Positions 1 through 14,874 of a stretch of 64,000 nucleotides of DNA are shown here, in pieces. Position 1 is the first letter of the stretch; each line of letters begins with the position of its first letter. Under the pieces are notes generated by a model. That model had not been told where the DNA came from and ran no database searches. It was given only the letters and a program-made list of their open reading frames with translations. Source of the stretch: a virus (Duplodnaviria > Caudoviricetes); IMG/VR virus record IMGVR_UViG_2974624810_000001, positions 1 to 64,000 of that record. One strand, given 5' to 3'. A program made the position numbers and the translations under genes.

Positions 1-779
1 GTGGGGGATATATCGAAGGTTTCGTAAGCATTATCCCCCACATTCTAAGGTCTAGCAGGCATCTGGCCCCCAATTCGAAGGCAAATAGACCTCAGAAGCA
101 TCGAAATTCTGCCCCCAAAATGCCTCAAAAACAGGAAAAATCACGATATTTCACCCTCAAAACGGACATTTTGCCCTTAAAATGGCCCAAAATCCTGCAA
201 TTTTGACAAGCATTCGTAAAGAGACCTGGATTCAAGGGGAATCGGGCGGCAATCCATCAAATCTAGCCATCATATCCCCCGAAAATTAGGCATTCTTCGT
301 AAATGGCCCCAACATTCGAAGGTTAATCAGGCTCAGAAGCCTATGAATCGCAGATGCGTTCTTACGAATCTAAGGAAGGGTGTCGATTCTCCCTATATAC
401 ACAACCATAGAATGATATTGAAAAACCCGGCAATCTGAAGAAGCCTTCGTAAATGAACTAGGTAGGTATCCATATATTATAGGGAGGGTATCAGTGTATT
501 GTATATAGGGGACAAGGGCACCTACGACTGCCGGGCCAATAATTTGTCAGTCATGTATATAGCAGAAAGGCACCCCGAAGGGTGCCTATTTTTATGAACT
601 CAAAATCTCTGCAAAAATCTTCAAACTCCCCAGAATTTCAGCCTTGACTTAAAGGGCAAAATCCCTGGAAAATTTGAGGCTCATCGTAAACGGGAAAAAT
701 TCGGACATAGGGGACAAATCAACGTCCAGATGGATAGTCATTATGTTAGTTAGCCTAGCTAAGGTGTCCGCCCCGGACA

Positions 780-870
780 TTGAAAGGTCCCCAGGGAGAG
801 GCCGACCTTCCTCTAATTAAGCCCTTGCCAGAATGACTGATAGGGCCCCTGGGGACACACTTTGTACTAC
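780..870 (-). ncRNA. Candidate small structured RNA (three-way junction)
   Basis: Own promoter at 905-877 and no ORF. Helices 787-796/847-856, 797-801/810-814 and 821-825/842-846. Confidence 0.5.
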
Positions 871-917
871 TCTTCTATGTTAGCAAGGCAGTGTTACCTT
901 GTCAACATCACTTTAGG

Positions 918-1127
918 TCACCATTCCAGCTCGTCTTCCACGCAGTAGTGGGACACGAACGGAACGACCCATCGGGTATTGAGAAGATGACCCCTCTCCG
1001 TCCACAGAGTCAGAGTTGCAGTCTTGGAATCGAACTCGATTCCCTTTCCGCCTCCCTGAATGTTATCGAAGATGAGTTCCCTTCGGACTCCCTCTTCCAG
1101 AACGATTACGGTTACCCTGTGAGTCAT
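918..1127 (-). CDS. hypothetical protein
   Basis: 69-aa ORF with AAGGGG RBS. Confidence 0.7.
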   Translation of the reverse strand: MTHRVTVIVLEEGVRRELIFDNIQGGGKGIEFDSKTATLTLWTERGHLLNTRWVVPFVSHYCVEDELEW

Positions 1128-1136
1128 TGCTTCCCC

Positions 1137-1313
1137 TTACACCGGCTCGTTCGGAATGATTACCTCGGTGTTGTCAGCGTTTCGGTAAACCGAGCAGTGA
1201 CCACAGAGAGGTGTCTCAACTTCGTTCAGGTTGAAGGTGCCGATGGCCCTGCGAGCGAAGCAACCTTCGCAGTCTTCGTTCTCTTCCGGACCGAAGGCCA
1301 TGACCATCGCCAT
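1137..1313 (-). CDS. small CxxC...CxxC zinc-binding protein (58 aa, not in ORF track)
   Basis: Manual translation MAMVMAFGPEENEDCEGC...LCGHCSVY...EPV*. RBS AAAGGGG, promoter at 1337. Confidence 0.7.
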   Translation of the reverse strand: MAMVMAFGPEENEDCEGCFARRAIGTFNLNEVETPLCGHCSVYRNADNTEVIIPNEPV

Positions 1314-1439
1314 GTCTTTCCCCTTTCGTTGATACGAGTCTAGCAGACTACGAGGACACCTGTCTACCCTGCCGGGCGATTGTCCGCCCCGGCCAAAATC
1401 CCCCTAAACCCTTTCGGGCTAGGGGGATTGGCGTGCCGC

Positions 1440-2462
1440 TTACGCGGCCTGAGCGAACTCCTGAACCGTCTTCAGGATTGCGTTCTTCTTGGCGTTGATG
1501 ACCGGGTCGAAGCCCGAAGCCGCAATGAACAGGTTGTCGACGTTGCCACCACGGGGCATCCGGTACCAGTCCTGAACCTCAGTGAAGGCGTTCAGTGCAC
1601 CGGCAGCGGTACCCTGGAGAGACTGAGTCGTCTTCGGACCATCACCCGTGTCGGTGAAAATGCCCATGTGGATGTCACGCTTCGACTCCCACTTGACCAT
1701 GCTGCCCTTGACGTCCTTCTCAGGCTTGGGGTACAGCGTGTTGAACAGGGTGTCGAAGTCGTCCTTCGAAACCGGAACGTTGGCCAGTTCGGTCATGACG
1801 CGCTCGAACTCATCCGCGTAGGCGAACGTGATGTTCAGCGCCTCACGAGCCGCAGCCATGCGACCCTCGATGGTCTGAGTGTGACGCATCTTGAACGTCT
1901 GCTTTACGTTGCCACGCAGAGCGAAGTTCAGCGTGTTCTGACAGACGACACGCACGGGCGTGATGCTTGCCTGAACTGCCACGCTTCCGTCGTGAGAGGT
2001 GTTGACCAGCAGATACAGCTTGGTCACGTCGTCGTCACCGATGACGATGTCACGAGAGATGGACAGAGAACCGAAGACCACGCGACCGTCACGGATGCTG
2101 CCCGCAGTCTCCCACGTGCCACCACCTGCGAGGATGCCGTCACCGAAGCCGAACAGCTCTTCGTTCTGGACGACCTTGTAACGCTCGCCCACGGTGGCCA
2201 GAACGTCGTTCTGACCGGTGGTGAAGGGGTTGTCACGAACGACCATGAACGGCTCCGTGACGAAGTTGTACGAGTCGGAGAGCATGCCCACGACGTCCTT
2301 CACGGACTCCAGGCGGACGTTCCAGCCCTTCAGGTGGGCCAGCGTCAGCATCTCGTCGGTGGTCAGCTCACCATCGAAGACGGTTCCGAGCTGGTGCCAC
2401 GCGGGCTCGCTGCGAGTGGCGAACGCGACCTGACCCTTGGAACCAATCTCAAGACCGTGCAT
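1440..2462 (-). CDS. DUF932 (phage/plasmid TIGR03299-like) protein
   Basis: Motifs PAWHQLG, Y..VQN.E.F.F, LL.NTSHDGS and TPVRVVCQNTL. Confidence 0.85.
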   Translation of the reverse strand: MHGLEIGSKGQVAFATRSEPAWHQLGTVFDGELTTDEMLTLAHLKGWNVRLESVKDVVGMLSDSYNFVTEPFMVVRDNPFTTGQNDVLATVGERYKVVQNEELFGFGDGILAGGGTWETAGSIRDGRVVFGSLSISRDIVIGDDDVTKLYLLVNTSHDGSVAVQASITPVRVVCQNTLNFALRGNVKQTFKMRHTQTIEGRMAAAREALNITFAYADEFERVMTELANVPVSKDDFDTLFNTLYPKPEKDVKGSMVKWESKRDIHMGIFTDTGDGPKTTQSLQGTAAGALNAFTEVQDWYRMPRGGNVDNLFIAASGFDPVINAKKNAILKTVQEFAQAA

Positions 2463-2598
2463 TTTTGCCTCCTAGGCAGATTGGTGTAAGGGCCGGTTTC
2501 CCTGCCCTTCGATGTCTCTAGTCTAGCAGTATCAAGGGGTCGTTGTCTACCGGTCGAAATTTGTCCGGCCCGGACAGGGGCCCGAAGGCCCCTGAAGG

Positions 2599-3039
2599 TC
2601 AGAACCGAGCACCAACACCCGAACCGTCCAAACACTGAACGATGTGCTTTGCAGTGCGCAGGTCGATGGTCGGGAAGTTCTGTCGCAGGTGCTTGATGCA
2701 CTGAATCTTGCGCTCCAGGTCGTAGTGGCTGAACTCCGCGTTGGCCCAGATGGTCGCACGCGTCACCAGTTCCGTGTGCGCGTTGTCCGCCTCGAAGAAG
2801 TGCAGTCGCTCACCGTGAGCCTTGCCCTGCTTGTAGCCGTCCTCGAATGCGGCTTCCACGCGCTTGTCGGCCTCCTTGCGGGCCACGTCCCAGATGTTGT
2901 TCTCCACCTCGTTGAGCCGGTTCAGGTGGGCCTCGTAGATGATGCTGGCCACCTCGAACGCCTTCTTCAGGCTCATCTTGATGCCGTTGTTGTGGAAGAT
3001 GCGCACGAGACGGTCCGTGTCGAAGTCGAAGATGCCCAT
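2599..3039 (-). CDS. hypothetical protein with C-terminal ribosomal L7/L12-CTD-like motif
   Basis: KIQCIKHLRQNFPTIDLRTAKHIVQ resembles the L7/L12 pattern KI..IK..R......L..AK..V. Confidence 0.6.
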   Translation of the reverse strand: MGIFDFDTDRLVRIFHNNGIKMSLKKAFEVASIIYEAHLNRLNEVENNIWDVARKEADKRVEAAFEDGYKQGKAHGERLHFFEADNAHTELVTRATIWANAEFSHYDLERKIQCIKHLRQNFPTIDLRTAKHIVQCLDGSGVGARF

Positions 3040-3175
3040 GGAATCCTCCAGTGTCTCTAGGGGGCGTTTCCCCCTTTCGATAGCTCAAGTCTACAGGAAC
3101 AGTGAGGCAGATACAAGCCCAAAGCTAAAGTGTCCGGCCCGGACGCCGGGCCCTTTTGTCAAGGGCCCGGTAGTC

Positions 3176-3511
3176 TCAGGGGTTTGTATTCCCCCTTTTC
3201 AGTATGATTTGGTCGATGACGAACTTTGCATCCATCACTCGATTGTACTCAGCATCCGAACGGCTTTCCTTTCTGCCTGCCCATGCGTTGAACAGAGAGA
3301 TTGCGAATTGCCAGAAAGCCTCCTGTACAGGCTCAGGGTAGGTAGAGACGAGATAGGCGAATGCGTGAAAGTCGAATGAACGCTTATCGAATTCATTGAC
3401 CAGCTTATTCGCCAGACGCTCATAGGAAGTCGGTCGTGGATTTACGAGCCTCGCACCCTCATACATGTCAGGTACGATTAGGCTTGTGCGATGGAAGGGA
3501 CTACGCGTCAC
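3176..3511 (-). CDS. hypothetical protein
   Basis: ORF, with GTG start chosen from the GGGGGAGAGG RBS. Confidence 0.65.
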   Translation of the reverse strand: MTRSPFHRTSLIVPDMYEGARLVNPRPTSYERLANKLVNEFDKRSFDFHAFAYLVSTYPEPVQEAFWQFAISLFNAWAGRKESRSDAEYNRVMDAKFVIDQIILKRGNTNP

Positions 3512-3665
3512 CCTCTCCCCCAAAGTCCTTTGTGGTGCCGTAGCCGTCTGAGACGCTGACAGACAGACCTAGCACCTTTGCCATGAACTCAGCCGTAGCT
3601 GTGGCAAAGGGCCAGGCACTGTCGTGAGCGTCATCATCGGGCGTGTCGATTTCGATGATGACCAT
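3501..3665 (-). CDS. hypothetical protein (54 aa, not in ORF track)
   Basis: Manual translation MVIIEIDTPDDDAH...GEGDA*. Fills the gap after Lsr2 and has an RBS. Confidence 0.6.
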   Translation of the reverse strand: MVIIEIDTPDDDAHDSAWPFATATAEFMAKVLGLSVSVSDGYGTTKDFGGEGDA

Positions 3666-3674
3666 GCCTCTATC

Positions 3675-4196
3675 CTATCGCGCGTGAATCTCTACGTCCA
3701 TCCCCAGCACCACGGGCGAGCCGCACGAGCAGTGGGACAGGCTGTAACCGCACTTGCACGCCTCACGCTCCGAGAGAATGAGACGCTTGCCACGGTACCA
3801 AGCGATGTACTCGGTACGGTGCGAACGGGTGGGGGCAGCGTGCGGACGAACGTCCTTACCGGTCACCTTGACGTGAACACCGGGCGCAGCGGGCTTGACT
3901 TCCGGGTTGTCAGCCTTGTAAGCGGCCAGAACCTCAGCGGAGAGACGCCCACGGGCCGAAACGGTCATGCCCTTGGATGCGGCCCACGCACGGACCGCCT
4001 TCGCATCGAACTGGCCAGCCTTCGGAGCGGCCTTGACGGCAGCACGCTTGACCGGTGCCGCAGCGTCAGAGAAGACCATGCCCTTACCCTCAGCCTCAGC
4101 GATGGCGTCATACGCAGCCTTGGACATACGCCCACGGGCGTCCTTTGCGAGGCCCAGCGAAACAGCGTACGCGCGACGGGTCATGTTGGCAGACAT
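3675..4196 (-). CDS. lsr2: Lsr2-like DNA-binding protein with two RGR-type modules and a Cys-rich tail
   Basis: AKAVRAWAASKGMTVSARGRLSAEVLAAY is the Lsr2 C-terminal domain. An N-terminal RAYAVSLGLAKDARGRMS repeats the pattern. Confidence 0.85.
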   Translation of the reverse strand: MSANMTRRAYAVSLGLAKDARGRMSKAAYDAIAEAEGKGMVFSDAAAPVKRAAVKAAPKAGQFDAKAVRAWAASKGMTVSARGRLSAEVLAAYKADNPEVKPAAPGVHVKVTGKDVRPHAAPTRSHRTEYIAWYRGKRLILSEREACKCGYSLSHCSCGSPVVLGMDVEIHAR

Positions 4197-4318
4197 TTGG
4201 GGTTCCTTCCCTCGGTGATGTCTCTAGTCTACGGCATTGAAGGGGGCAGCGTCAACACGTAAAAATGTCCGCAATGTCCGATTTGCCGGTTGTCCGCCCC
4301 GGCCCGAAGGCCCTAGCG

Positions 4319-5059
4319 TCAAGCCTTTCGACGCTTAGGAACCTTGGACGCGAAACGAATGTCAGCCTTGCCAAAGACGCAAAGGCCACATGTTACACAC
4401 GCACCACCCTTTTCGGTAATGAGGGGAATGCGCTTGGCATTCTCAGGGCAGATAGCGCCAGGCTTACCAGTTTCGGTAAGCATGAATTCCTTACCCTTTT
4501 CATGTGTCTCTGCCAGATAGGCCAGATGCACATCCCTGTACGTGTCTCGTGTGTACAGTGCAGCATCCTCATTTTCACTGTCTACGCTGAGATAGACTGC
4601 GAGATTGGGAATGCCATTGATATAGGACACGTACTCGAAAGAACGCGTGTAAATCCAGAATTGCACGTCAGGGAATGCAAAGGCGGTGATGTTGATTGCC
4701 ATCGCATAATCCGCAGAAAAGATATCCCCATCTGCGTGCCAGCGGAAAAGCTTTTCGACATCTCGCTTTTCACATTCGTCCACGAATTCGCCAACCATCT
4801 CTCCCAAGAGGGAAACCATGTCGGCATAGGAAGCGTCTTTCAACAGCTCCCAATTGTGCAGAACAAGGGCGCGGTAGGCAGGGTATTGCCTTTCCAGCTT
4901 ACCGGCATAGCAGACGGTCTCACAGACCTTTGTCGCGCCAGGGCAGGAATACTCCGTTCCGCTCGGAAGGGAAAAGGCATTGGCGATAAGCGGATTGGTG
5001 CCAGCCTTGTTGGACAGGTTGGCAGTCTTACGGTCCTTAGTCCTCTTGAGTGCAGCCAT
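4319..5059 (-). CDS. GP88-like Cys-rich (putative Fe-S) protein
   Basis: Motifs SCPGATKVCETVCYA, FRWHADGD, FWIYTRS and C-terminal CP...CVTCGLC. Confidence 0.65.
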   Translation of the reverse strand: MAALKRTKDRKTANLSNKAGTNPLIANAFSLPSGTEYSCPGATKVCETVCYAGKLERQYPAYRALVLHNWELLKDASYADMVSLLGEMVGEFVDECEKRDVEKLFRWHADGDIFSADYAMAINITAFAFPDVQFWIYTRSFEYVSYINGIPNLAVYLSVDSENEDAALYTRDTYRDVHLAYLAETHEKGKEFMLTETGKPGAICPENAKRIPLITEKGGACVTCGLCVFGKADIRFASKVPKRRKA

Positions 5060-5174
5060 GACGTTCCCTTCGCTTGACGTAAGACGAGTCTAGCAGACTT
5101 GGAGGACGTAAACAACCCTTTGAAATGTCCGATATGCCCGATGTCCGTCCCGGACAGGCCCGAAGGCCAGTCGG

Positions 5175-5450
5175 TTAATGATTTTCCGGGTGACAGCAAT
5201 TCTTTCCGTCGCAGTCACAGGGCATGTCATGCGCTCCGAAATCACAGCACATACAGTCCATGATAATTACCGAGCGATGCGAAGCGTATGAGATTACATT
5301 CTCTCGCTGCGTTGCCTCGTTGAAGAAATGCACCATTCGCTTTCCGTTGTGAGTGCCAATGTTGCGAGTGATGTGACCAGTCATGTAGTATCCGTTATCG
5401 AAACGGATACGCTCGTGGACGCCGATTTCCGAAAAGGGCTTACGCAGCAT
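5175..5450 (-). CDS. hypothetical protein, Cys-rich C-terminus
   Basis: ORF, with ATG at 5450 and AGGAG RBS. Confidence 0.65.
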   Translation of the reverse strand: MLRKPFSEIGVHERIRFDNGYYMTGHITRNIGTHNGKRMVHFFNEATQRENVISYASHRSVIIMDCMCCDFGAHDMPCDCDGKNCCHPENH

Positions 5451-5748
5451 TGCGCTCCTCCGAACGACTGTAGGGAAGTTCCTTGTTACGAACGATGGTA
5501 GCGAGAGAGACGGCTTGAATGGTCTTGATTCCAAGGAGCCAAGCGGCTACAACTCGGTGCTGACCATTGTACACACAGCCATTCTGGAAATTGATAGGCA
5601 TGTGAATACCCTCACGCTGTACGGACTCAATGAATGCCGGGCTCATTTCGTCCAGAAGACGAGCAAAAAGGTCCATGGTCGACTCGCCATCCTCACGGTC
5701 GGCAAAGTCAGCACGGGCCACGATTGCGTCAATGCTCAGCGTCTTCAT
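5440..5748 (-). CDS. standalone ParB/Srx N-terminal domain protein (leaderless)
   Basis: SVQREGIHMPI...VYNGQHRVVAA. The -10 lies 6 nt before the ATG. Confidence 0.75.
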   Translation of the reverse strand: MKTLSIDAIVARADFADREDGESTMDLFARLLDEMSPAFIESVQREGIHMPINFQNGCVYNGQHRVVAAWLLGIKTIQAVSLATIVRNKELPYSRSEERNAA

Positions 5749-5841
5749 GTCTGTAGTCTAACAGACCAGACAGACAGGCACAAGCCTTTTTCAAAAAGTG
5801 TCCGGCCCGGACATGACTGAGGCCCCCGAAGGGGCCGGTAG

Positions 5842-5901
5842 TCAGAAAAGAATGAGCAGAACGAACAGGGCTACAATGAGCCAGACGTACCTATCAGGCA
5901 T
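5842..5901 (-). CDS. 19-aa hydrophobic micropeptide
   Basis: MPDRYVWLIVALFVLLILF* with GGGAGG RBS. Ends at the cassette hairpin. Confidence 0.5.
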   Translation of the reverse strand: MPDRYVWLIVALFVLLILF

Positions 5902-5971
5902 TCTCACTCGCCTCCCGATACCAAGCATAGTGCGTGTAGAGATAGAAGTGAAGCCATTCCACGAAGTACAT
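5894..5971 (-). CDS. 25-aa aromatic micropeptide
   Basis: MYFVEWLHFYLYTHYAWYREASENA* with AGGAG RBS. Confidence 0.45.
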   Translation of the reverse strand: MYFVEWLHFYLYTHYAWYREASENA

Positions 5972-5978
5972 GACACTC

Positions 5979-6278
5979 CTAGAAGAGTTCGGGTCCGGAC
6001 TCGCTGTCTTCCGTCCAGTCCTCAGTATACTCGATGAACTCGACGTTCAACAACCACGCGATAAGAACTCGGTGGTGTCCGTTGAAAACGGTGTTCGACT
6101 CCACCATGTAGATGATGGGGTCAAGGATGCCCTTGGAGCAAGATTCAACAAACTCAGGGTTTCCCTCAAAGAGGTCGTTGAACTTCTCTTCGAACATCTG
6201 CCAGGTGGTGTGACCCTTGGCCTCAGCATCATTGAAGATAGCCGACTCAATCAGCTTCGCAACAGATACCTTGGCCAT
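5979..6278 (-). CDS. standalone ParB/Srx N-terminal domain protein (second paralog)
   Basis: SKGILDPII...VFNGHHRVLIAWLL. Confidence 0.75.
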   Translation of the reverse strand: MAKVSVAKLIESAIFNDAEAKGHTTWQMFEEKFNDLFEGNPEFVESCSKGILDPIIYMVESNTVFNGHHRVLIAWLLNVEFIEYTEDWTEDSESGPELF

Positions 6279-6389
6279 GTCGCCCTCCTTGGCTTGATAG
6301 GTCTAGTCTACATGCCTACAAGGGCTGTGTCTAGTGCCGGGCCAAATTGTCCGGGGCGGCCAAATGGGGCCCCGGAGGGCCCCATTGGG

Positions 6390-6662
6390 TCAGTCTTCGC
6401 TGGTGTCCTTCTGGCTCACCAGCTTCGCACGGCCGAGCAGAGATGCGTCGGCCTCCTTCCACTTCTTGACCGGCTTGCCGACTCGCACACGGGGGAATCG
6501 AGCGATGATGGCACGCGCACGGGTCTCGTCCGCCTCCAGGATGTCGAACCGCTGGAAGGGGGCACGGGTGGCGATGGGGCCGAACTCGATGTCCACCCCC
6601 TGGACAATCATGGCCACGCGGAGGGAGAGGGCGTCACGGACGGGAACGATACCGGCAATCAT
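6390..6662 (-). CDS. hypothetical protein
   Basis: 90-aa ORF with AGGAG RBS. Confidence 0.7.
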   Translation of the reverse strand: MIAGIVPVRDALSLRVAMIVQGVDIEFGPIATRAPFQRFDILEADETRARAIIARFPRVRVGKPVKKWKEADASLLGRAKLVSQKDTSED

Positions 6663-6789
6663 GTGAACTCCTGAGAGTCGAAGTAAGCTGGGGTATTCAG
6701 TTATCAGAGACTTTGGCAGGAAGGGAAAAACCTCGTTTTGCGAGGCCCGTTGGCCTGTCCCCTTGTGCTACTCACTCTATCAGGCTGAC

Positions 6790-6927
6790 CTAGTTGCAGT
6801 CAACCAGGTACTCAGGCTCGTCGTCCTCATCCGGAACGGTCCAGATGTCCGCCAGCCATCCGCTACGGATGACGCCGGTCGGCTCGTCCTCGACCTTTTC
6901 GACGTTCTTGCCAAGTCGGACGCCCAT
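6790..6927 (-). CDS. hypothetical acidic protein
   Basis: ATG at 6927 with GAGGAG RBS, promoter at 6974. Confidence 0.6.
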   Translation of the reverse strand: MGVRLGKNVEKVEDEPTGVIRSGWLADIWTVPDEDDEPEYLVDCN

Positions 6928-7064
6928 GATGGTCTCCTCTCGTTGGAAGGTTTCCCTCCCTCTCGATGTTCTAAGTCTACACGAAGGATGCGACAGACAC
7001 AACACCCAACATTGTTAGCCTTGCTAAGTGTCCGGGGCGGACACGCCCCCGAAGGGGCGCACCG

Positions 7065-7256
7065 TCAGTCTCCCATGTCGTCCAAGTGGGAGTCGTCGAA
7101 CTCGTCGAAGTCGTCGTCTTCCAGACGCTCGTCAGGCTCGAATTCCTGGAAGGTGTCTTCGAAGATGACCAGCCATGCCAGCCCGAACTTTTCTTCGGGG
7201 TTGCAGATGCCAGTGTGCATCTCGCCGACGTTCGCCTTGCATTCCATGCACTGCAT
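7065..7256 (-). CDS. hypothetical protein (CxxC, very acidic tail)
   Basis: ORF. Confidence 0.65.
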   Translation of the reverse strand: MQCMECKANVGEMHTGICNPEEKFGLAWLVIFEDTFQEFEPDERLEDDDFDEFDDSHLDDMGD

Positions 7257-7257
7257 G

Positions 7258-7473
7258 TCAGACTCCGTCCCACTTGACAGCCACGAACATGTCCACGTTG
7301 TTGACCATGATGGCCAGTCGCGTACCGTTCTTGTCGGTCAGGTTGAACACTTCCTGCTCGCTGTACACGGCATCGTTCCATGCCGTGTTGATGGCATCGG
7401 GAGTCGTGTCCAGAATGTACGCGTCCAGACTGTTGTCACGGCCCTTGAAGTAGAGCTTGACCCTGACGCCCAT
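7258..7473 (-). CDS. hypothetical protein
   Basis: ORF with RBS and promoter at 7519. Confidence 0.7.
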   Translation of the reverse strand: MGVRVKLYFKGRDNSLDAYILDTTPDAINTAWNDAVYSEQEVFNLTDKNGTRLAIMVNNVDMFVAVKWDGV

Positions 7474-7593
7474 GACACATCCTCTCTTCCGGGAGTTTTT
7501 CTCCCTTTCGATGCTCTAACTCTACACGACTATGCTGACATGCGCAAGGTGTCCGGGCCGGTCACCGGGCCCCGAAGGGCCCGGCAGGGAAGG

Positions 7594-7878
7594 TTACTTC
7601 TTCACCTTGGCACGCTTGTTGCTGTGGTTACCGTTCATGAGAGCGGTGAAGTCCAGCATGATGTTCTGCTTGAAGTTGGTCGCTCCGTGGAACTTGCCGT
7701 CCTGGTCACGGATGACGATGCGAACCTCGGTGTTGTCGCTGCCCGGAGTGGTCTTCCAGGTCTCCAGACGGATGCTGTAGGTGGACTTGGAGCCCTTGAC
7801 CTTGAAGCCCTCGGAGATGGCGACGGAGGAAACGATGTTCTTGAACTCGACGTCGGTGGCCTTGGCGAGAGTGACCAT
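7594..7878 (-). CDS. hypothetical protein
   Basis: ORF with AAGGAG RBS and promoter at 7933. Confidence 0.75.
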   Translation of the reverse strand: MVTLAKATDVEFKNIVSSVAISEGFKVKGSKSTYSIRLETWKTTPGSDNTEVRIVIRDQDGKFHGATNFKQNIMLDFTALMNGNHSNKRAKVKK

Positions 7879-8021
7879 GAAAGGCTCCTTAGAGTCTTAG
7901 CTTGGGGTTCCTTCCCCCTTGCTGATAGCTAAAGTCTACACGACTCCAGGGACAAGTACAAGCCCTCAATATGTCCAAATTGCCCGTTGTCCGGGCCGGG
8001 CAGCCCCGAAGGGCCTCCCAG

Positions 8022-8348
8022 CTAATCAGCGAGGATTGCAGCCAGACGCTCACGCTGTGCACGGTCATGCGCACCGGAACGACTGCTGTATTCCTGAAAC
8101 TCACTCACCGTGTCGATGGTGAAGTGTCCGTTTTCGTCCAGCTTGGCCACACGAACGGTGTAGCGTCGGGCGTAGTCGTCGTTACGCTCAGAGGTAACGA
8201 AGAACATTTCCTTTCCCTGAAGAGTGCTGTAGCAGATGTCCGAAATGCGCGAGTTCCACCAACGCATGGTCGAACCGCTGAAGAAGTGGTTACCCTGCTC
8301 CTGAGCGATGGCCTTGGCGTCTTCGATGGAAAACAGAACGTCACGCAT
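8022..8348 (-). CDS. hypothetical protein
   Basis: ATG at 8348 with GAGG RBS, promoter at 8378. Confidence 0.75.
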   Translation of the reverse strand: MRDVLFSIEDAKAIAQEQGNHFFSGSTMRWWNSRISDICYSTLQGKEMFFVTSERNDDYARRYTVRVAKLDENGHFTIDTVSEFQEYSSRSGAHDRAQRERLAAILAD

Positions 8349-8465
8349 GTTGTGTTCCTCTCGCTTGGTGTAAGTAGAGTCTAACACAGTACAAGGGCTC
8401 TGCACAACACCTACCGGGCCTTTTTGAAAATGTCCGACCCGGACAGGGCCCGAAGGCCCTGCCGG

Positions 8466-8795
8466 TTAGGTCAGCTTGGCCAGAAGGGCACTGATGTCAT
8501 GCCTCAACTCAGCCTCGGAACGCATGCCACGCTCCTCCTTCAACTGACGCTCGAAGTAGGCACGCAGCTCGGTCTTGTTGTAGGGTCCGTACACACCCTT
8601 GTCGTCGGTGTAGTTGATTTTCTCGAAGGGCGACGGGCAGGAACAACCGGAGTCGCTTGCCACGTAGTACCGGCCTCGGGTTTCCTTCCACACCATCGTG
8701 ATGTTGAACTGCCAGGACTCATGGTCCCAATCGAAGGAGTCGACGTAGGTCAGGCTGTCCAGCGAAACGCGCTTGGGCTTCGAAAGGTCAGTCAT
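8466..8795 (-). CDS. hypothetical phage protein (DSGCSCPSPFE motif)
   Basis: ORF with GAGGAGG RBS. Confidence 0.75.
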   Translation of the reverse strand: MTDLSKPKRVSLDSLTYVDSFDWDHESWQFNITMVWKETRGRYYVASDSGCSCPSPFEKINYTDDKGVYGPYNKTELRAYFERQLKEERGMRSEAELRHDISALLAKLT

Positions 8796-8928
8796 GATGC
8801 CTCCTCGTTTTCGGTAAGACCAGTCTACAGGACGAATTTTTGAGTCGCAACCCCTCAGACCGATTTTTTAGTCAGAATCCCAAATGCCCGATTTTTAGTC
8901 CGGGCCGGACGCCCGAAGGCGTCCCCCA

Positions 8929-9243
8929 TCACTCCCAGGGCTTCCAGTCAGACCAGTCCGCACCCTCACGGCTTTCGATGAGGATTTCCACCGTGTCACC
9001 CAGATGGTGATTCACGCTGTACAGCGACCGGTAGGGGTGAGACTGGTACTTGCGCTGAGTCTTGGCCCATGCTACCAGCTTCTCAGCCTGCTTACGCGAA
9101 CGACAGGGCCACGCCTCCACACAGACAGCGTAGTTGTACCACCAGTCACCCTCCTCCGCACCACCATAGGCACGGTCCAGCTCATAGATGTTGACCCAGT
9201 GCTTGTTCCGACGACGCTGACCCATACGCAGACCCTTGGCCAT
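8929..9243 (-). CDS. hypothetical phage protein (YGGAEEGDWWY motif)
   Basis: ORF with AAGGAGG RBS. Confidence 0.75.
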   Translation of the reverse strand: MAKGLRMGQRRRNKHWVNIYELDRAYGGAEEGDWWYNYAVCVEAWPCRSRKQAEKLVAWAKTQRKYQSHPYRSLYSVNHHLGDTVEILIESREGADWSDWKPWE

Positions 9244-9345
9244 TTCCGCCTCCTTGTCGATGACCTAAGTCTAACAGAAGCCTAGGACAGATTCAACATG
9301 TCTAACAGGATTGGCAGTCATGTCCGCCCCGGACAAAAATTCAGA

Positions 9346-9414
9346 CAGAAATTCACCCCTATTTTCTAAGGAAATCTAGGCGAAAATCCTTGAAAATAGG
9401 GGTGAATTTTTTCT
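9346..9414. repeat. long AT-rich inverted repeat
   Basis: 18-bp perfect arms 9349-9366 / 9392-9409, plus inner AAGGA/TCCTT. Confidence 0.85.
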
Positions 9415-9432
9415 GCAATTGTTTTTCGAAGG

Positions 9433-9645
9433 TCAGAAGGGCACGATTTCGTTGTTTCCATCGCCACAAAGGCAATGTTTCGAGTGTCGAGCCCCAATCG
9501 GGGTCATTCCGGACTTTTCGAACCGAACAATCATGTCCGGGAACTGAGAAGTCGAAATCACGCCCGATTCGGTACGCAGACCGGCCCTTTCCAGAATCAA
9601 AGAGCCGGAATGCGTGAATCTAGGGGCTTTCTTCCTACGAAGCAT
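9433..9645 (-). CDS. hypothetical protein
   Basis: ORF with AAGGGG RBS. Confidence 0.55.
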   Translation of the reverse strand: MLRRKKAPRFTHSGSLILERAGLRTESGVISTSQFPDMIVRFEKSGMTPIGARHSKHCLCGDGNNEIVPF

Positions 9646-9660
9646 TTTTGCCCCTTTTGG

Positions 9661-9804
9661 TTACGCCAGTTCGGCCATGTGCGGGTAGGCGTCCCAGTCG
9701 AAGCCGTCCACACGGTCCGCATCCTGCACGTCACTCACAGGGAGGGACATGGTGGTGAAGACACCCGCATCACGGGCCTGCTCAAGAAGGTCACGAAGGT
9801 CCAT
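9661..9804 (-). CDS. hypothetical protein (47 aa)
   Basis: ATG at 9804 with GAGG RBS, promoter at 9837. Confidence 0.65.
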   Translation of the reverse strand: MDLRDLLEQARDAGVFTTMSLPVSDVQDADRVDGFDWDAYPHMAELA

Positions 9805-9949
9805 GGTGTGTACTTCCTCTCGCTTGGTGTAGTACCAGTCTACACAGGTAGGGGTGTGGATGCAAGTACCCAAAATCGTGGGAATTTTTAGGGGCGCTTC
9901 GTACACGCGCGGGGGAAATGTGGGGAATCTACGTAATGCCCCGTAAAAG

Positions 9950-10075
9950 GGCCTATATTCCCTATGTACCATATGTCCGTTTTGGCAGGGTTGGGTATGG
10001 TATGTACTACTATGCCCTATATGTACCCCTATGTATGGGTATGTACCCAATGTCCGTTTTGCCCCATATGCCCGA
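9950..10075. repeat. TATGY-rich short tandem-like repeat tract
   Basis: Repeated TATGTAC/TATGCCC/ATGTCCG units. ATGTCCGTTTT occurs twice. Confidence 0.7.
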
Positions 10076-10192
10076 TGTCCGCCCCGGACAGACTTTACCT
10101 AAACGTTACCTAGATTCTTGCCTGATTAGGGTTGTATCCGGGCCGGGCATGGGTAGGATGTAGGCATAGCCACTACAGACCAGGGAGACACG

Positions 10193-13051: not shown

Positions 13052-13190
13052 GCGAAACTACCCATTCCTGTAGAGCGTATATTTCAGTTGCTATTTGCTT
13101 GCCTCGCGGAGTTCCCCGATGCTTCAAGTACTCTTCCTTGAGCTTACCGAGTCTCTTTTCCGCTTCGTTCATGTTCTTTGGAGTGCTCAT
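13035..13190 (-). CDS. hypothetical protein (51 aa)
   Basis: Manual translation MSTPKNMNEAEK...HERRK*. Confidence 0.55.
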   Translation of the reverse strand: MSTPKNMNEAEKRLGKLKEEYLKHRGTPRGKQIATEIYALQEWVVSHERRK

Positions 13191-13507
13191 ACGTTATTCC
13201 TATCCAAGACACCGTGAACACAATCGGCATCTATATCGTCGTAGTTTGACAGCAATCGCAACTCTGAGACTGCTTCCTTGTACCGGCGATTTTCTGTCAG
13301 ATAGTTGTCAGCATCGTTGGCCCACCGGTAGGCATCTTTGCGAAGTGCTAGGAACTTATCACGAGGAATCTCTTCATTGGGCAAGATATCAAATTCAACC
13401 CATACTGAGTACTCCTCCTCTGTCATTCCTAGAAACTCGTGGAGTGACATTTTTGTGTCACTGTCATGCCACTTGTCCACGAGGTCTTCTAGTTGTCCTC
13501 TGTTCAT
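13187..13507 (-). CDS. hypothetical protein
   Basis: ORF with LHEFLGMTEEEY motif. Confidence 0.7.
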   Translation of the reverse strand: MNRGQLEDLVDKWHDSDTKMSLHEFLGMTEEEYSVWVEFDILPNEEIPRDKFLALRKDAYRWANDADNYLTENRRYKEAVSELRLLSNYDDIDADCVHGVLDRNNV

Positions 13508-13900
13508 GTCCTCAGTTTGTCACGCGCCGGGGACATTGTCAAGACGTGACACTGCCTTGTTCACCGTATTCACTGGGACATCTGTCCCCTTGATGTCACA
13601 AATTTGCTTATGAAGTTCTGTCCTGTCCGTGACACCCTTGGCCCATAGGTCTCTGACCAGTGCGGACACTGATTTGTCCTTGCTTATGTCACTTGTCCTG
13701 GTGACACTTTTTGTCACCTTCTTAGTGACATTGTCCGTGACAGGGACATCAGGTGTGGTGACAGCAAATTCTTTTGTCACTTTGTCCTGGGACATGTCCC
13801 GTGACATGTCATTTGGCTTGTCACGCTTGTCCTTCTTGGTTGTCACCTTGTCACGTGGTTTTGTCCTCTGAAGAGGTTCATTCGTGACACTCGTGACAAC
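13441..13900. repeat. dense TGTC(A/C) / (T/G)GACA motif array
   Basis: About 40 hand-counted TGTC/GACA in 460 bp, against about 4 expected. They occur on both strands and in several frames. Confidence 0.85.
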
Positions 13901-14422
13901 CTCATTCAGCCTGAAGAATACCACGTCCTTGAAGCCACGGAAAGTCTTGCCTGGGAAGATAAGCCAGCTAATCTTGCCAAACACTGGCATACGCTTGGGA
14001 ACGAGTCCATTTGCTCGCATCTCTGTCCTGTGGACGAAACGCAAATAAAGCTCGAAAAGGATTCCGGCAATAACTGGTGGTGCCCCAAAAAGAACCATTC
14101 CAGGGACCCCGTAGGACAGCAGGATGGCGTGTTCTACGTTGAGGTATACAGACGCTCCAACAAACAGATACGTCGCTAGTTTTGTTGCTAGGCCAGAGTC
14201 TTCTGTTCTGGCGTACTTACTGGCAAGGTCGGCTACAAACAGTGCCGCACCATCAAATGCCGCGCTTACACCAATTGCCAGAATCTTGGGCACGCCATAG
14301 AACGTTATTGCGAGCGAATAGAGACTCCACCAACTCAGTGCCAGCGCGACAATGAGGACGATTCCGAATGACACTGAACCTCGCCAGTCAAGAATCTTCT
14401 TGACGTTTGGCGATTTCATCAT
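13520..14422 (-). CDS. DUF2637-like four-TM membrane protein with low-complexity linker and putative C-terminal HTH (Spd-like)
   Basis: Four hydrophobic segments. Motifs SW.SL..LA, FDG, SVYLNVEHA and APP.....FE. Helical C-terminal domain. Confidence 0.7.
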   Translation of the reverse strand: MMKSPNVKKILDWRGSVSFGIVLIVALALSWWSLYSLAITFYGVPKILAIGVSAAFDGAALFVADLASKYARTEDSGLATKLATYLFVGASVYLNVEHAILLSYGVPGMVLFGAPPVIAGILFELYLRFVHRTEMRANGLVPKRMPVFGKISWLIFPGKTFRGFKDVVFFRLNEVVTSVTNEPLQRTKPRDKVTTKKDKRDKPNDMSRDMSQDKVTKEFAVTTPDVPVTDNVTKKVTKSVTRTSDISKDKSVSALVRDLWAKGVTDRTELHKQICDIKGTDVPVNTVNKAVSRLDNVPGA

Positions 14423-14472
14423 TCTCCTTAGACAAAAGCGCAGGCGGCCCGTTTGGACCGCCTGCTATGAAA

Positions 14473-14874
14473 TTATTTTGCTGACTCGATAAGCATCCAG
14501 AGCCATTTGTCGACTCCTCGCTTCACTTCAATGAGAACATCTTGTGTAGCAAGGTCATCAGTAATGTTCAGTATAGCATTTTGAAGAACGTTGGTCAATC
14601 CCCTGAAGGAACTGACAAGACCTTCGATAGTCTGCAAGAAACTTATTGATTCCCCAGAGAATTCATAACTTACCTTGGGTGCAAGGTAGACACCAATTGC
14701 TCTGGCTCGCTCTGCGATGACATCAGCATATTCAGTTATATCGGAGTGAATCTCGTCAAGCTTCTCGTGTAGGTAGAAGAATTCCTTACCTCTGAGATTC
14801 CAATGACTCTCCTTGACGACCAAGGAGAGAATCAGAAGCCATTCCAGAGATTCCTCCAGCTTTGCTTCTAGCAC
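14473..14874 (-). CDS. dps: Dps/ferritin-like protein
   Basis: HWNLRGKEFFYLHEKLDE...DVIAER, TQDVL and DKWLWML. Confidence 0.85.
   Translation of the reverse strand: MLEAKLEESLEWLLILSLVVKESHWNLRGKEFFYLHEKLDEIHSDITEYADVIAERARAIGVYLAPKVSYEFSGESISFLQTIEGLVSSFRGLTNVLQNAILNITDDLATQDVLIEVKRGVDKWLWMLIESAK

What the first reader, a model, noticed from the sequence alone, without database searches (positions are those of the whole stretch)
13441..14422. Membrane-anchored DUF2637/Spd-like gene carrying about 40 TGTC/GACA motifs in its own 3' half
Seen: about 40 TGTC/GACA (mostly TGTCAC, TGTCC, GTGACA, GGACA) in 13441-13900, roughly ten times chance. They occur on both strands, in different reading frames (DK, VT, MS, RT), often as inverted pairs (GGGACATGTCCC, TGTCCGTGACA twice), and continue past the stop codon into the next gene. 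This points to selection on the DNA, not the protein. The protein has 4 TMs, a linker encoded by the array and a helical C-terminal domain. Established: Streptomyces conjugative elements encode membrane and DNA-binding Spd proteins for intramycelial spreading. Inference: a one-gene system in which the protein binds an array inside its own gene, tethering the phage genome to the membrane or moving it across hyphal cross-walls. The TGTCC half-site also matches the early-region palindrome, so the two systems may be linked.
Basis: partly seen in the sequence, partly recalled or inferred. Interest (0 to 1): 0.85.

Follow-up and report, generated by a model that had tools for sequence, protein, structure and literature searches.

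The report
Binding-site array inside membrane-protein gene
A Streptomyces phage gene for a membrane-anchored DNA-binding protein carries about 40 copies of a short DNA word in its own coding sequence; these are most likely the protein's own docking sites, which would tie the phage genome to the cell membrane.

Summary
Window 13441-13900 holds 40 TGTC/GACA cores (about 5 expected), mostly GTGACA and GGACA. It is the densest short-word cluster in this 131,976-bp virulent BE-cluster Streptomyces phage. The excess survives a synonymous-codon null (33 seen, 11.1±2.3 expected). The words lie on both strands, in several frames, and run past the stop codon.

The gene (13520-14422, minus strand) encodes four membrane helices (DUF2637), a disordered linker written by the array, and a C-terminal three-helix bundle.

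All 14 BE relatives examined keep the array. The three whole genomes scanned each have a second array near 78-79 kb; it is intergenic in this phage.

Homologues in another phage (Kromp), in the satellites Mulchroom and MiniFlayer, in integrated satellite-like islands and in plasmids carry their own arrays at the same place, with other words (CGGACAC, ACGACA, TTCGCA, GAGCGC and others). Several of these elements have no detectable FtsK/TraB pump.

Best reading (0.5): the protein's own tail docks on the array and tethers the genome to the membrane, as part of an Spd/TraB-like DNA-handling module. Binding is inferred, not shown. Rivals are a clt site read by the phage's FtsK-like pump, and an iteron origin.

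The proposed link to the early-region palindrome is not supported. Unchecked notes from this scan report similar arrays in at least six other genomes.

The parts
13520..14422 (-). Gene for a 300-aa DUF2637 membrane protein. An AAGGAG ribosome-binding site precedes the ATG.
   Evidence: ORF list; Pfam PF10935 E 3.9e-6; phrog_10376 E 6.6e-151; homologues in 87 BE phages at 62-84% identity.
14042..14368 (-). Coding sequence for the four transmembrane helices (about residues 19-127). By the positive-inside rule the N- and C-termini face the cytoplasm (inference).
   Evidence: AlphaFold2 helices 7-41, 46-71, 78-101, 105-137 with pLDDT 80-90; invariant D57, N95, H98 in the 35-sequence alignment and E124 nearly invariant (at least 90%).
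13673..13882 (-). Coding sequence for the disordered linker (about residues 181-250). It is the densest part of the array.
   Evidence: pLDDT 32-39 over residues 190-244. Relatives vary in length and sequence but keep the word density. Core bases are more conserved than non-core bases at third codon positions: 0.63 against 0.49.
13523..13672 (-). Coding sequence for the C-terminal three-helix domain (residues 251-300), the candidate helix-turn-helix reader of the array.
   Evidence: Helices 252-261, 267-278 and 284-292. Conserved pattern LV..LW..GVTDR..L....IKG..VP.NT[IV]NKA[VL]SRL. The best structural neighbours are HTH or winged-helix DNA-binding domains, but the matches are weak: Z at most 5.8 among these domains (overall top row Z 6.4 is an MBP-SENP3 fusion).
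13441..13900 (.). Array 1: 40 TGTC/GACA cores on both strands, mainly GTGACA and GGACA.
   Evidence: Present at the same place in all 14 BE loci examined, at 31-41 cores per 460 bp.
13187..13507 (-). Downstream 106-aa gene of unknown function. Its first 60 or so bases hold the tail of the array.
   Evidence: Eight cores at 13446-13518. Five are seen in the first 21 codons against 2.6 expected from synonymous resampling, P 0.03. The positions are conserved in relatives. phrog_12828, unknown function.
14440..14465 (-). Terminator-like hairpin with 11 pairs, between the Dps/ferritin-like gene and the DUF2637 gene.
   Evidence: Consensus scan.

Best explanation
The array is a cis-acting docking site. 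The gene's own product is a four-helix membrane protein whose cytoplasmic C-terminal three-helix domain recognises words with a GACA core (GTGACA, GGACA). It loads many copies onto the 460-bp array written through its own linker-coding DNA, and onto a second array at genome 78140-78245. This ties the phage chromosome to the cytoplasmic membrane.

The linker has little constraint on its amino-acid sequence, so the DNA there is free to hold sites. Placing site and reader in one gene keeps the pair together when it moves between elements. Each phage, satellite or plasmid has its own word, so each marks only its own DNA.

The tether most likely serves an Spd/TraB-like DNA-handling module, in which the membrane protein presents the marked DNA to the phage's FtsK/TraB-like pump. 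Alternatively it anchors the DNA to a membrane-bound replication or packaging site.

Shown here: the array, selection on the DNA, the architecture, conservation, and the change of word together with the protein across lineages. Inferred: binding by the C-terminal domain, the membrane tether, and the link to the pump.
For: 1. Selection is on the DNA: synonymous-codon null, both strands and several frames, spill past the stop codon, and turnover of individual sites while density is kept.

2. The same words form a second array that lies in intergenic DNA in this phage and in Yaboi. In Yaboi both arrays use only GTGACA.

3. Domain order is membrane domain, disordered linker, three-helix C-terminal domain. 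The nearest folds are DNA-binding HTH domains.

4. Homologues carry their own array in the same linker position with other words:
- Kromp: CGGACAC
- integrated satellite-like islands: AGGACA, AAGACA, ACAGACA
- Mulchroom: ACGACA; MiniFlayer: TTCGCA
- plasmids: GAGCGC, CGGAACG, CGGTTCGC, CCGGTCTC
Close C-terminal domains share the GACA core; unrelated ones have unrelated words.

5. Kromp, Mulchroom and MiniFlayer have array and gene but no detectable FtsK/TraB-like protein. The satellites' words differ from their helpers' words.

6. In plasmids and integrative conjugative elements, homologues sit next to FtsK/TraB genes. Every BE phage has an FtsK-like gene.

7. Literature: SpdB2 is a four-helix membrane protein that binds DNA and interacts with TraB, and homologues were noted on actinophages (PMC4447253).
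Against: - No binding experiment exists.
- The C-terminal domain has no Pfam match, and its structural matches are weak and generic.
- Muntaha and one plasmid homologue have the same architecture but no array, neither in the gene nor, for Muntaha, anywhere in the genome. An AICE homologue next to a TraB gene also shows none.
- BE phages also encode an FtsK-like protein with a winged-helix-like C-terminus that could read GTGACA.
- In BE phages the pump gene is about 60 kb from array 1.
- In Peebs the second array lies inside a structured enzyme gene, which is unexplained.
- For the large GC-rich plasmid genes the 6-7-mer excess does not exceed a codon-order shuffle.
Confidence: 0.5

Rival explanations
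1. The arrays are clt-like loading sites read by the winged-helix C-terminus of the phage's own FtsK/TraB-like translocase (genome 73820-75637), as TraB reads 7-9-bp repeats on Streptomyces plasmids. The DUF2637 gene merely hosts the site.
For: - Established clt loci are clusters of 7-9-bp repeats bound by TraB or TraA (PMC4447253, PMC3583192).
- All BE phages encode the FtsK-like protein.
- Its C-terminal 75 residues look like a winged helix and are nearly identical in Samistivirus and Karimacvirus, which share GTGACA.
- Array 2 lies 2.5 kb downstream of that gene.
- Plasmid and integrative-element homologues sit beside FtsK/TraB genes.
Against: - Kromp, Mulchroom and MiniFlayer keep gene and array without any detectable FtsK-like protein.
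- The satellites do not copy their helpers' words, as they would need to in order to use the helper's pump directly.
- The array always lies in the DUF2637 gene, not in or next to the pump gene, in BE phages.
Confidence: 0.2
2. The arrays are iteron-type replication origins and the DUF2637 protein is a membrane-bound initiator or origin-anchoring factor. The known parallels are lambda O, whose origin lies in its own linker-coding DNA, and SPP1 G38P, with one origin inside its own gene and a second far away.
For:
- Words are private to each element, as with plasmid incompatibility groups.
- Mulchroom-type satellites lack any recognisable replication gene, yet keep this gene (PMC10690885).
- Array 2 is followed by GC-rich and then AT-rich DNA.
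Against: - There is no AT-rich unwinding tract at array 1; GC is 0.42-0.57 throughout.
- The protein has no ATPase or helicase-loader domain, and a four-helix membrane domain is not a feature of known initiators.
- Cumulative GC skew turns at about 16-17 kb together with transcription direction, not at the arrays.
- Plasmid homologues sit in transfer regions, not replication regions.
Confidence: 0.15
3. The arrays are regulatory. The protein, or another phage factor, binds them to throttle its own transcription or to control the promoter downstream of array 2, or they act as a sponge for a regulator.
For: Dense sites inside a transcribed gene could block RNA polymerase. Array 2 lies about 130-150 bp upstream of a conserved TTGACA-N17-TAAGGT promoter-like site in this phage and in Yaboi. 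L019 has nine sites in the 200 bp upstream of its gene.
Against: Forty sites is far more than regulation needs. A membrane anchor has no evident role in such control. The array mostly lies at the 3' end of the gene and beyond it.
Confidence: 0.08
4. There is no function at the DNA level. The words are a by-product of a low-complexity peptide linker rich in VT, DK and TK.
For: The linker is low-complexity, and VT and DK dipeptides can be encoded by GTGACA and GACAAG.
Against: The synonymous null is exceeded by about 10 standard deviations. Words lie on both strands and in several frames. The same words occur in intergenic DNA at 78 kb. Third codon positions inside cores are conserved.
Confidence: 0.02

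Closest known systems
clt loci with TraB recognition repeats on Streptomyces conjugative plasmids (pSVH1 8-bp repeats, pJV1 nine 9-bp repeats, pWTY27 four TGACACC repeats; PMC4447253, PMC3583192)
   Same: A cluster of many short (6-9 bp) element-specific words, partly inside a coding sequence, on mobile DNA of Streptomyces. The words mark that DNA for a membrane-located DNA-handling machine. pWTY27's word TGACACC even resembles GTGACAC.
   Different: Here there are about 40 copies instead of 4-9, on both strands, inside the gene of a DUF2637 membrane protein rather than at the tra gene. The element is a virulent 132-kb phage.
SpdB2 of pSVH1 (plasmid-spreading protein; PMC4447253)
   Same: [quoted passage not shown] It works with TraB, and homologues were reported on actinophages.
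   Different: SpdB2 binding was described as non-specific, and no site array in its gene has been reported. Sequence homology to a characterised Spd protein was not shown here (pIJ101 SpdB: hhalign probability 3.6%).
Lambda O protein with ori-lambda, and SPP1 G38P with oriL and oriR (own knowledge, not checked in papers here)
   Same: The binding sites of a DNA-binding protein are written inside its own gene; in lambda they lie in the part that codes for an interdomain linker. SPP1 has a second site cluster tens of kb away.
   Different: Those proteins are soluble initiators with an N-terminal DNA-binding domain, 4-5 long iterons and an adjacent AT-rich tract. Here the protein is a membrane protein with a C-terminal reader, about 40 six-base words, and no AT-rich tract.
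phi29 p16.7 (own knowledge)
   Same: A phage membrane protein with a C-terminal DNA-binding domain that attaches replicating phage DNA to the membrane.
   Different: p16.7 has a single transmembrane helix, binds DNA without sequence preference, and has no site array. It is not related in sequence.

Membership tests
DUF2637 (Pfam PF10935) | Match to the family profile above the curated cut-off | tested here: met
   27.3 bits against a cut-off of 22.8, residues 21-166. 457 relatives at E<=0.001 in the representative library.
DUF2637 (Pfam PF10935) | Helical membrane domain of four transmembrane helices | tested here: met
   AlphaFold2 model, helices 7-41, 46-71, 78-101, 105-137.
Spd (plasmid-spreading) proteins of Streptomyces plasmids, SpdB/SpdB2 type | Sequence homology to a characterised Spd protein | tested here: not met
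   Family alignment against pIJ101 SpdB: hhalign probability 3.6%. SpdB has no Pfam hit. pSVH1 SpdB2 could not be fetched, so that comparison was not made.
Spd (plasmid-spreading) proteins of Streptomyces plasmids, SpdB/SpdB2 type | Gene lies in a transfer operon beside traB | tested here: not met
   In this phage the FtsK-like gene is at 73.8 kb and this gene at 13.5-14.4 kb. Homologues on a Kitasatospora plasmid and in two integrative elements do lie beside FtsK/TraB genes.
Spd (plasmid-spreading) proteins of Streptomyces plasmids, SpdB/SpdB2 type | Oligomeric pore, DNA binding, requirement for intramycelial spread | not testable with these tools
   Needs biochemistry and genetics.
[quoted passage not shown] | Cluster of short direct or inverted repeats specific to the element | tested here: met
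[quoted passage not shown] | Lies at or overlapping the tra (FtsK-like) gene | tested here: not met
   Array 1 is 60 kb from the FtsK-like gene. Array 2 is 2.5 kb downstream, with several genes between.
[quoted passage not shown] | Bound by TraB and required in cis for transfer | not testable with these tools
   Needs gel-shift and transfer assays.
Iteron origin inside the initiator's own gene (lambda O type) | Adjacent AT-rich unwinding tract | tested here: not met
   GC is 0.42-0.57 in every 60-bp window across 13200-14500. An AT-rich stretch exists only 150-250 bp beyond array 2.
Iteron origin inside the initiator's own gene (lambda O type) | Copy-number peak or autonomous replication from the site | not tested
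   Would need sequencing of infected cells. GC skew gives no signal apart from transcription direction.
Helix-turn-helix DNA-binding domains | Three-helix fold matching solved DNA-binding domains | tested here: inconclusive
   The three-helix model has pLDDT 78-88. Best matches include the phage G20c small-terminase DNA-binding domain (Z 5.8), Mos1 transposase, Fur/Nur, MecI, PadR and StbA, but all are at levels that small helical domains reach by chance. No Pfam match.

The most novel reading that the evidence does not exclude
DUF2637 proteins form a widespread self-addressing system of actinobacterial mobile DNA. Each gene writes the binding sites of its own C-terminal reader into its own linker, giving every phage, satellite and plasmid in a hypha a private membrane-docking label. 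In BE phages the label feeds the genome to a phage-encoded FtsK/TraB-like pump, so that a virulent phage and its satellites (which carry private labels) spread as naked DNA across hyphal cross-walls before lysis.
Probability: 0.2. Interest if true: 0.85.

Novelty: new variant of a known kind. Interest (0 to 1): 0.7.

Why it matters
DUF2637 is a large actinobacterial family, and a full-text search found only two papers that even mention it.

This locus gives the family a testable job and a ready-made ligand. The probable binding sites can be read directly from each gene, and they differ between elements, which suits swap experiments.

It also bears on an open question about the Streptomyces satellites MiniFlayer and Mulchroom. 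They have no replication genes, yet keep this 'membrane protein' as one of their few shared non-structural genes (PMC10690885). Each has its own array with a word different from its helper's. This points to a private cis/trans pair that could explain how the satellite's DNA is recognised inside a helper-infected hypha.

If the tether works with the phage's FtsK-like pump, virulent phages of mycelial bacteria would be using conjugation-type DNA movement.

Tried and rejected
- Foldseek search of the full-length model against PDB: no meaningful match.
- Pfam on the C-terminal 66 residues and on the tails of the Kromp and Muntaha proteins: nothing.
- Scan of bacterial genome contigs with the family alignment: only one locus.
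- A Pfam PF01580 search of the phage genome found no FtsK.
- Spacing analysis: a strong 3-nt period from coding and a weak excess at 9-12 bp. The pooled sequences are related, so I make no claim of helical phasing.
- Link between the array and the terminal-repeat palindrome TGTCCG-N3-CGGACA: rejected, because relatives with the same array words lack the palindrome.
- Codon-order shuffle null for the large GC-rich plasmid genes: not exceeded at k=6-7. For those genes the case rests on 7-8-mer clustering within the locus and on strand and frame spread.
- Two of the six randomly chosen distant homologues gave only marginal arrays and one gave none.
- Search for pSVH1 SpdB2 among plasmid hits: not found.

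Full report
**What the DNA is**

The window is the first 64 kb of a 131,976-bp linear phage genome with exact 10,818-bp direct terminal repeats and 49% G+C. Its nearest relatives are virulent BE-cluster Streptomyces phages of the genus Samistivirus (Sushi23, Peebs and others), at about 85% DNA identity over this locus. Genes from about 11 to 17 kb run leftward; almost everything from 17.4 kb to the right repeat runs rightward. The finding lies in the leftward block, 2.6 kb inside the unique region.

- Window 13441-13900 contains 25 TGTC and 15 GACA, against about 5 expected from the window's density. The fuller words are GTGACA/TGTCAC (19) and GGACA/TGTCC (18).
- GTGACA is 59-fold enriched relative to the genome.
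- In an unbiased scan of all 6- and 7-mers, this is the densest cluster in the whole genome.
- Given the protein sequence, resampling synonymous codons by the phage's own codon usage yields 11.1±2.3 cores (maximum 20 of 5000) against 33 observed. Permuting synonymous codons inside the segment gives 17.4±2.2.
- Cores lie on both strands and in several frames.
- Eight cores lie beyond the stop codon, in the first codons of the next gene.

**The protein**

The 300-residue product matches Pfam DUF2637. An AlphaFold2 model built from 35 homologues shows:
- four long helices, with conserved polar residues D57, N95, H98 (invariant) and E124 (at least 90%);
- an amphipathic helix;
- a disordered stretch at 190-244, which is what the array encodes;
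- a confident three-helix C-terminal bundle at 252-292.

Charge distribution puts both termini in the cytoplasm (inference). The bundle has no Pfam match. Its best structural neighbours are helix-turn-helix or winged-helix DNA-binding domains (phage G20c small terminase, Mos1 transposase, Fur family, MecI, PadR, StbA). The scores (Z at most 5.8 for these domains; the overall top row, Z 6.4, is an MBP-SENP3 fusion) are within what small helical domains reach by chance. The fold is compatible with DNA binding but does not prove it.

**Relatives within the BE cluster**

All 14 BE loci examined keep 31-41 cores in the same 460 bp. Samistivirus phages use GTGACA plus GGACA. Karimacvirus phages use almost only CGTGACA, with 22-27 GTGACA per array.

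In an alignment of eight Samistivirus-type genes the linker is full of substitutions and indels, yet word density is kept. Core bases are more conserved than their neighbours, also at third codon positions (0.63 against 0.49). This is the signature of selection for number and density of sites rather than for a peptide.

**A second array**

Genome-wide, this phage, Peebs and Yaboi each have exactly two such clusters: the one in this gene, and one near 78-79 kb.
- In this phage the second array (genome 78140-78245, outside the window) is intergenic. It starts right after the terminator of a DUF3307 membrane-protein gene and is followed by GC-rich DNA, AT-rich DNA and a promoter-like site.
- In Yaboi it is at the same place and, like Yaboi's first array, uses only GTGACA.
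- In Peebs it lies inside a 651-residue hydrolase gene that the other two genomes lack.

An intergenic copy of the same words rules out a purely peptide-level origin.

**Distant homologues carry their own arrays**

| Element | Word in the linker-coding DNA |
|---|---|
| Kromp (58 kb, 71% G+C, unrelated phage) | about 24 CGGACA(C), spilling past the stop; top cluster of its genome |
| Streptomyces chromosomal homologues (40-47% identity) in 12-15-kb low-G+C islands (integrase, Lsr2, this gene, terminase, portal, scaffold, capsid) | AGGACA, AAGACA or ACAGACA |
| Satellite Mulchroom | ACGACA x17 |
| Satellite MiniFlayer | TGCGAA/TTCGCA x16-22 |
| Plasmid homologues (related only in the membrane domain; hhalign probability 97.8% for one) | GAGCGC x25, CGGAACG, CGGTTCGC, CCGGTCTC |

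The satellites' helpers, MulchMansion and MindFlayer-type phages, use GTGACA-type words, so the satellites do not copy their helpers.

In these arrays the words again lie on both strands, in several frames, and often beyond the stop codon.

Of six further homologues picked without regard to content, three have clear arrays, two are marginal and one has none. Muntaha and one small plasmid also have none. The arrangement is frequent in the family but not universal.

**Who reads the array**

It matches PHROG families named FtsK/SpoIIIE-like and is annotated as such in all 87 or more BE relatives. Pfam PF01580 misses it. It has a winged-helix-like C-terminus that is nearly identical in Samistivirus and Karimacvirus.

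TraB proteins of Streptomyces plasmids read clusters of 7-9-bp repeats called clt (PMC4447253, PMC3583192). The pump is therefore a real rival reader in BE phages.

Two results count against it as the general reader:
- Kromp, Mulchroom and MiniFlayer have gene and array but no detectable FtsK-like protein, by either the Pfam profile or the BE protein.
- The satellites' words differ from their helpers'.

The only component that always travels with the array is the DUF2637 protein. Close C-terminal domains share the GACA core, while unrelated ones go with unrelated words.

The origin reading is attractive because the satellites lack replication genes (PMC10690885) and because lambda O and SPP1 G38P have sites in their own genes (own knowledge). 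It is weakened by the lack of an AT-rich tract at array 1, by the membrane anchor, and by the transfer-region context of plasmid homologues.

**Mechanism proposed**

The protein inserts into the membrane, and its cytoplasmic tail coats the array on the DNA that encoded it, together with the second array. The genome becomes fixed to the membrane. There it can be presented to the FtsK-like pump, as SpdB2 works with TraB on plasmids (PMC4447253), or be held at a replication or packaging site.

Every step after 'the array is under selection as DNA and travels with this protein' is inference.

**What is not supported**

- The early-region palindrome TGTCCG-N3-CGGACA is real: 13 sites with at most one mismatch, all in the terminal repeat, against 0.13 expected. 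However, it occurs 8 times per repeat here, once in Peebs and not at all in Yaboi, while the arrays persist. The two features are not coupled.
- Homology to pIJ101 SpdB was not found, so 'Spd-like' describes the architecture only.

**Novelty**

A full-text search found only two papers that mention DUF2637, both in passing. The paper on the satellites calls this gene a 'predicted membrane protein' and, in the passages I retrieved, does not mention repeats in it.

Unchecked notes of this scan report the same kind of array in DUF2637/SpdB2-like genes of at least six other genomes, with other words. This case adds four things: the virulent BE phages, the second distant array, the unlinked pump, and the two isolated satellites with private words.

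Noticed in passing
window 765-10090 (and the right terminal repeat, genome 121923-131234): The palindrome TGTCCG-N3-CGGACA occurs 13 times with at most one mismatch (0.13 expected), only inside the terminal repeat. Peebs has one copy per repeat and Yaboi none, so it is specific to this lineage.
   Followed up: partly
genome 73820-75637 (outside the window; L040:3820-5637): A 605-aa divergent FtsK/TraB-like protein with N-terminal membrane helices and a winged-helix-like C-terminus, present in all BE phages. Pfam PF01580 does not detect it; PHROGs does.
   Followed up: partly
genome 77745-78137 (L040:7745-8137): The DUF3307 membrane-protein gene just before array 2 holds six of the same words in its own coding sequence (77849-77926).
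   Followed up: no
Peebs, L061:1625-3580 (record 78124-80079): In Peebs the second array lies inside a 651-aa hydrolase gene that is absent from this phage and from Yaboi. About 17 words lie across codons 235-320 of what looks like a structured domain.
   Followed up: partly
L017, L018, L019, L021, L036, L038, L070: Streptomyces chromosomes and metagenome contigs carry 12-15-kb low-G+C islands with integrase, Lsr2, the DUF2637 gene, terminase, portal, scaffold and capsid but no tail or replication genes. They look like integrated relatives of the satellite Mulchroom.
   Followed up: partly
EGole and Samisti12 (hits H14, H25, H40): In these two phages the match to the DUF2637 locus comes in two pieces, with an HNH / endonuclease VII gene annotated between them. 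A homing-endonuclease gene may have been inserted in or next to the gene.
   Followed up: no
L068:11331-12287, L069:14392-15336, L015:2001-2933, L063:2899-3921: The Mulchroom, MiniFlayer, Muntaha and one plasmid protein all end in a short G-(M/F/G)-Y-(L/A) tail that the BE proteins lack. It may be a docking peptide.
   Followed up: no
window 14473-14874 (-): A Dps/ferritin-like gene (Pfam Ferritin, E 4e-11) lies directly upstream of the DUF2637 gene in all BE relatives, separated from it by an 11-pair terminator-like hairpin at 14440-14465.
   Followed up: no
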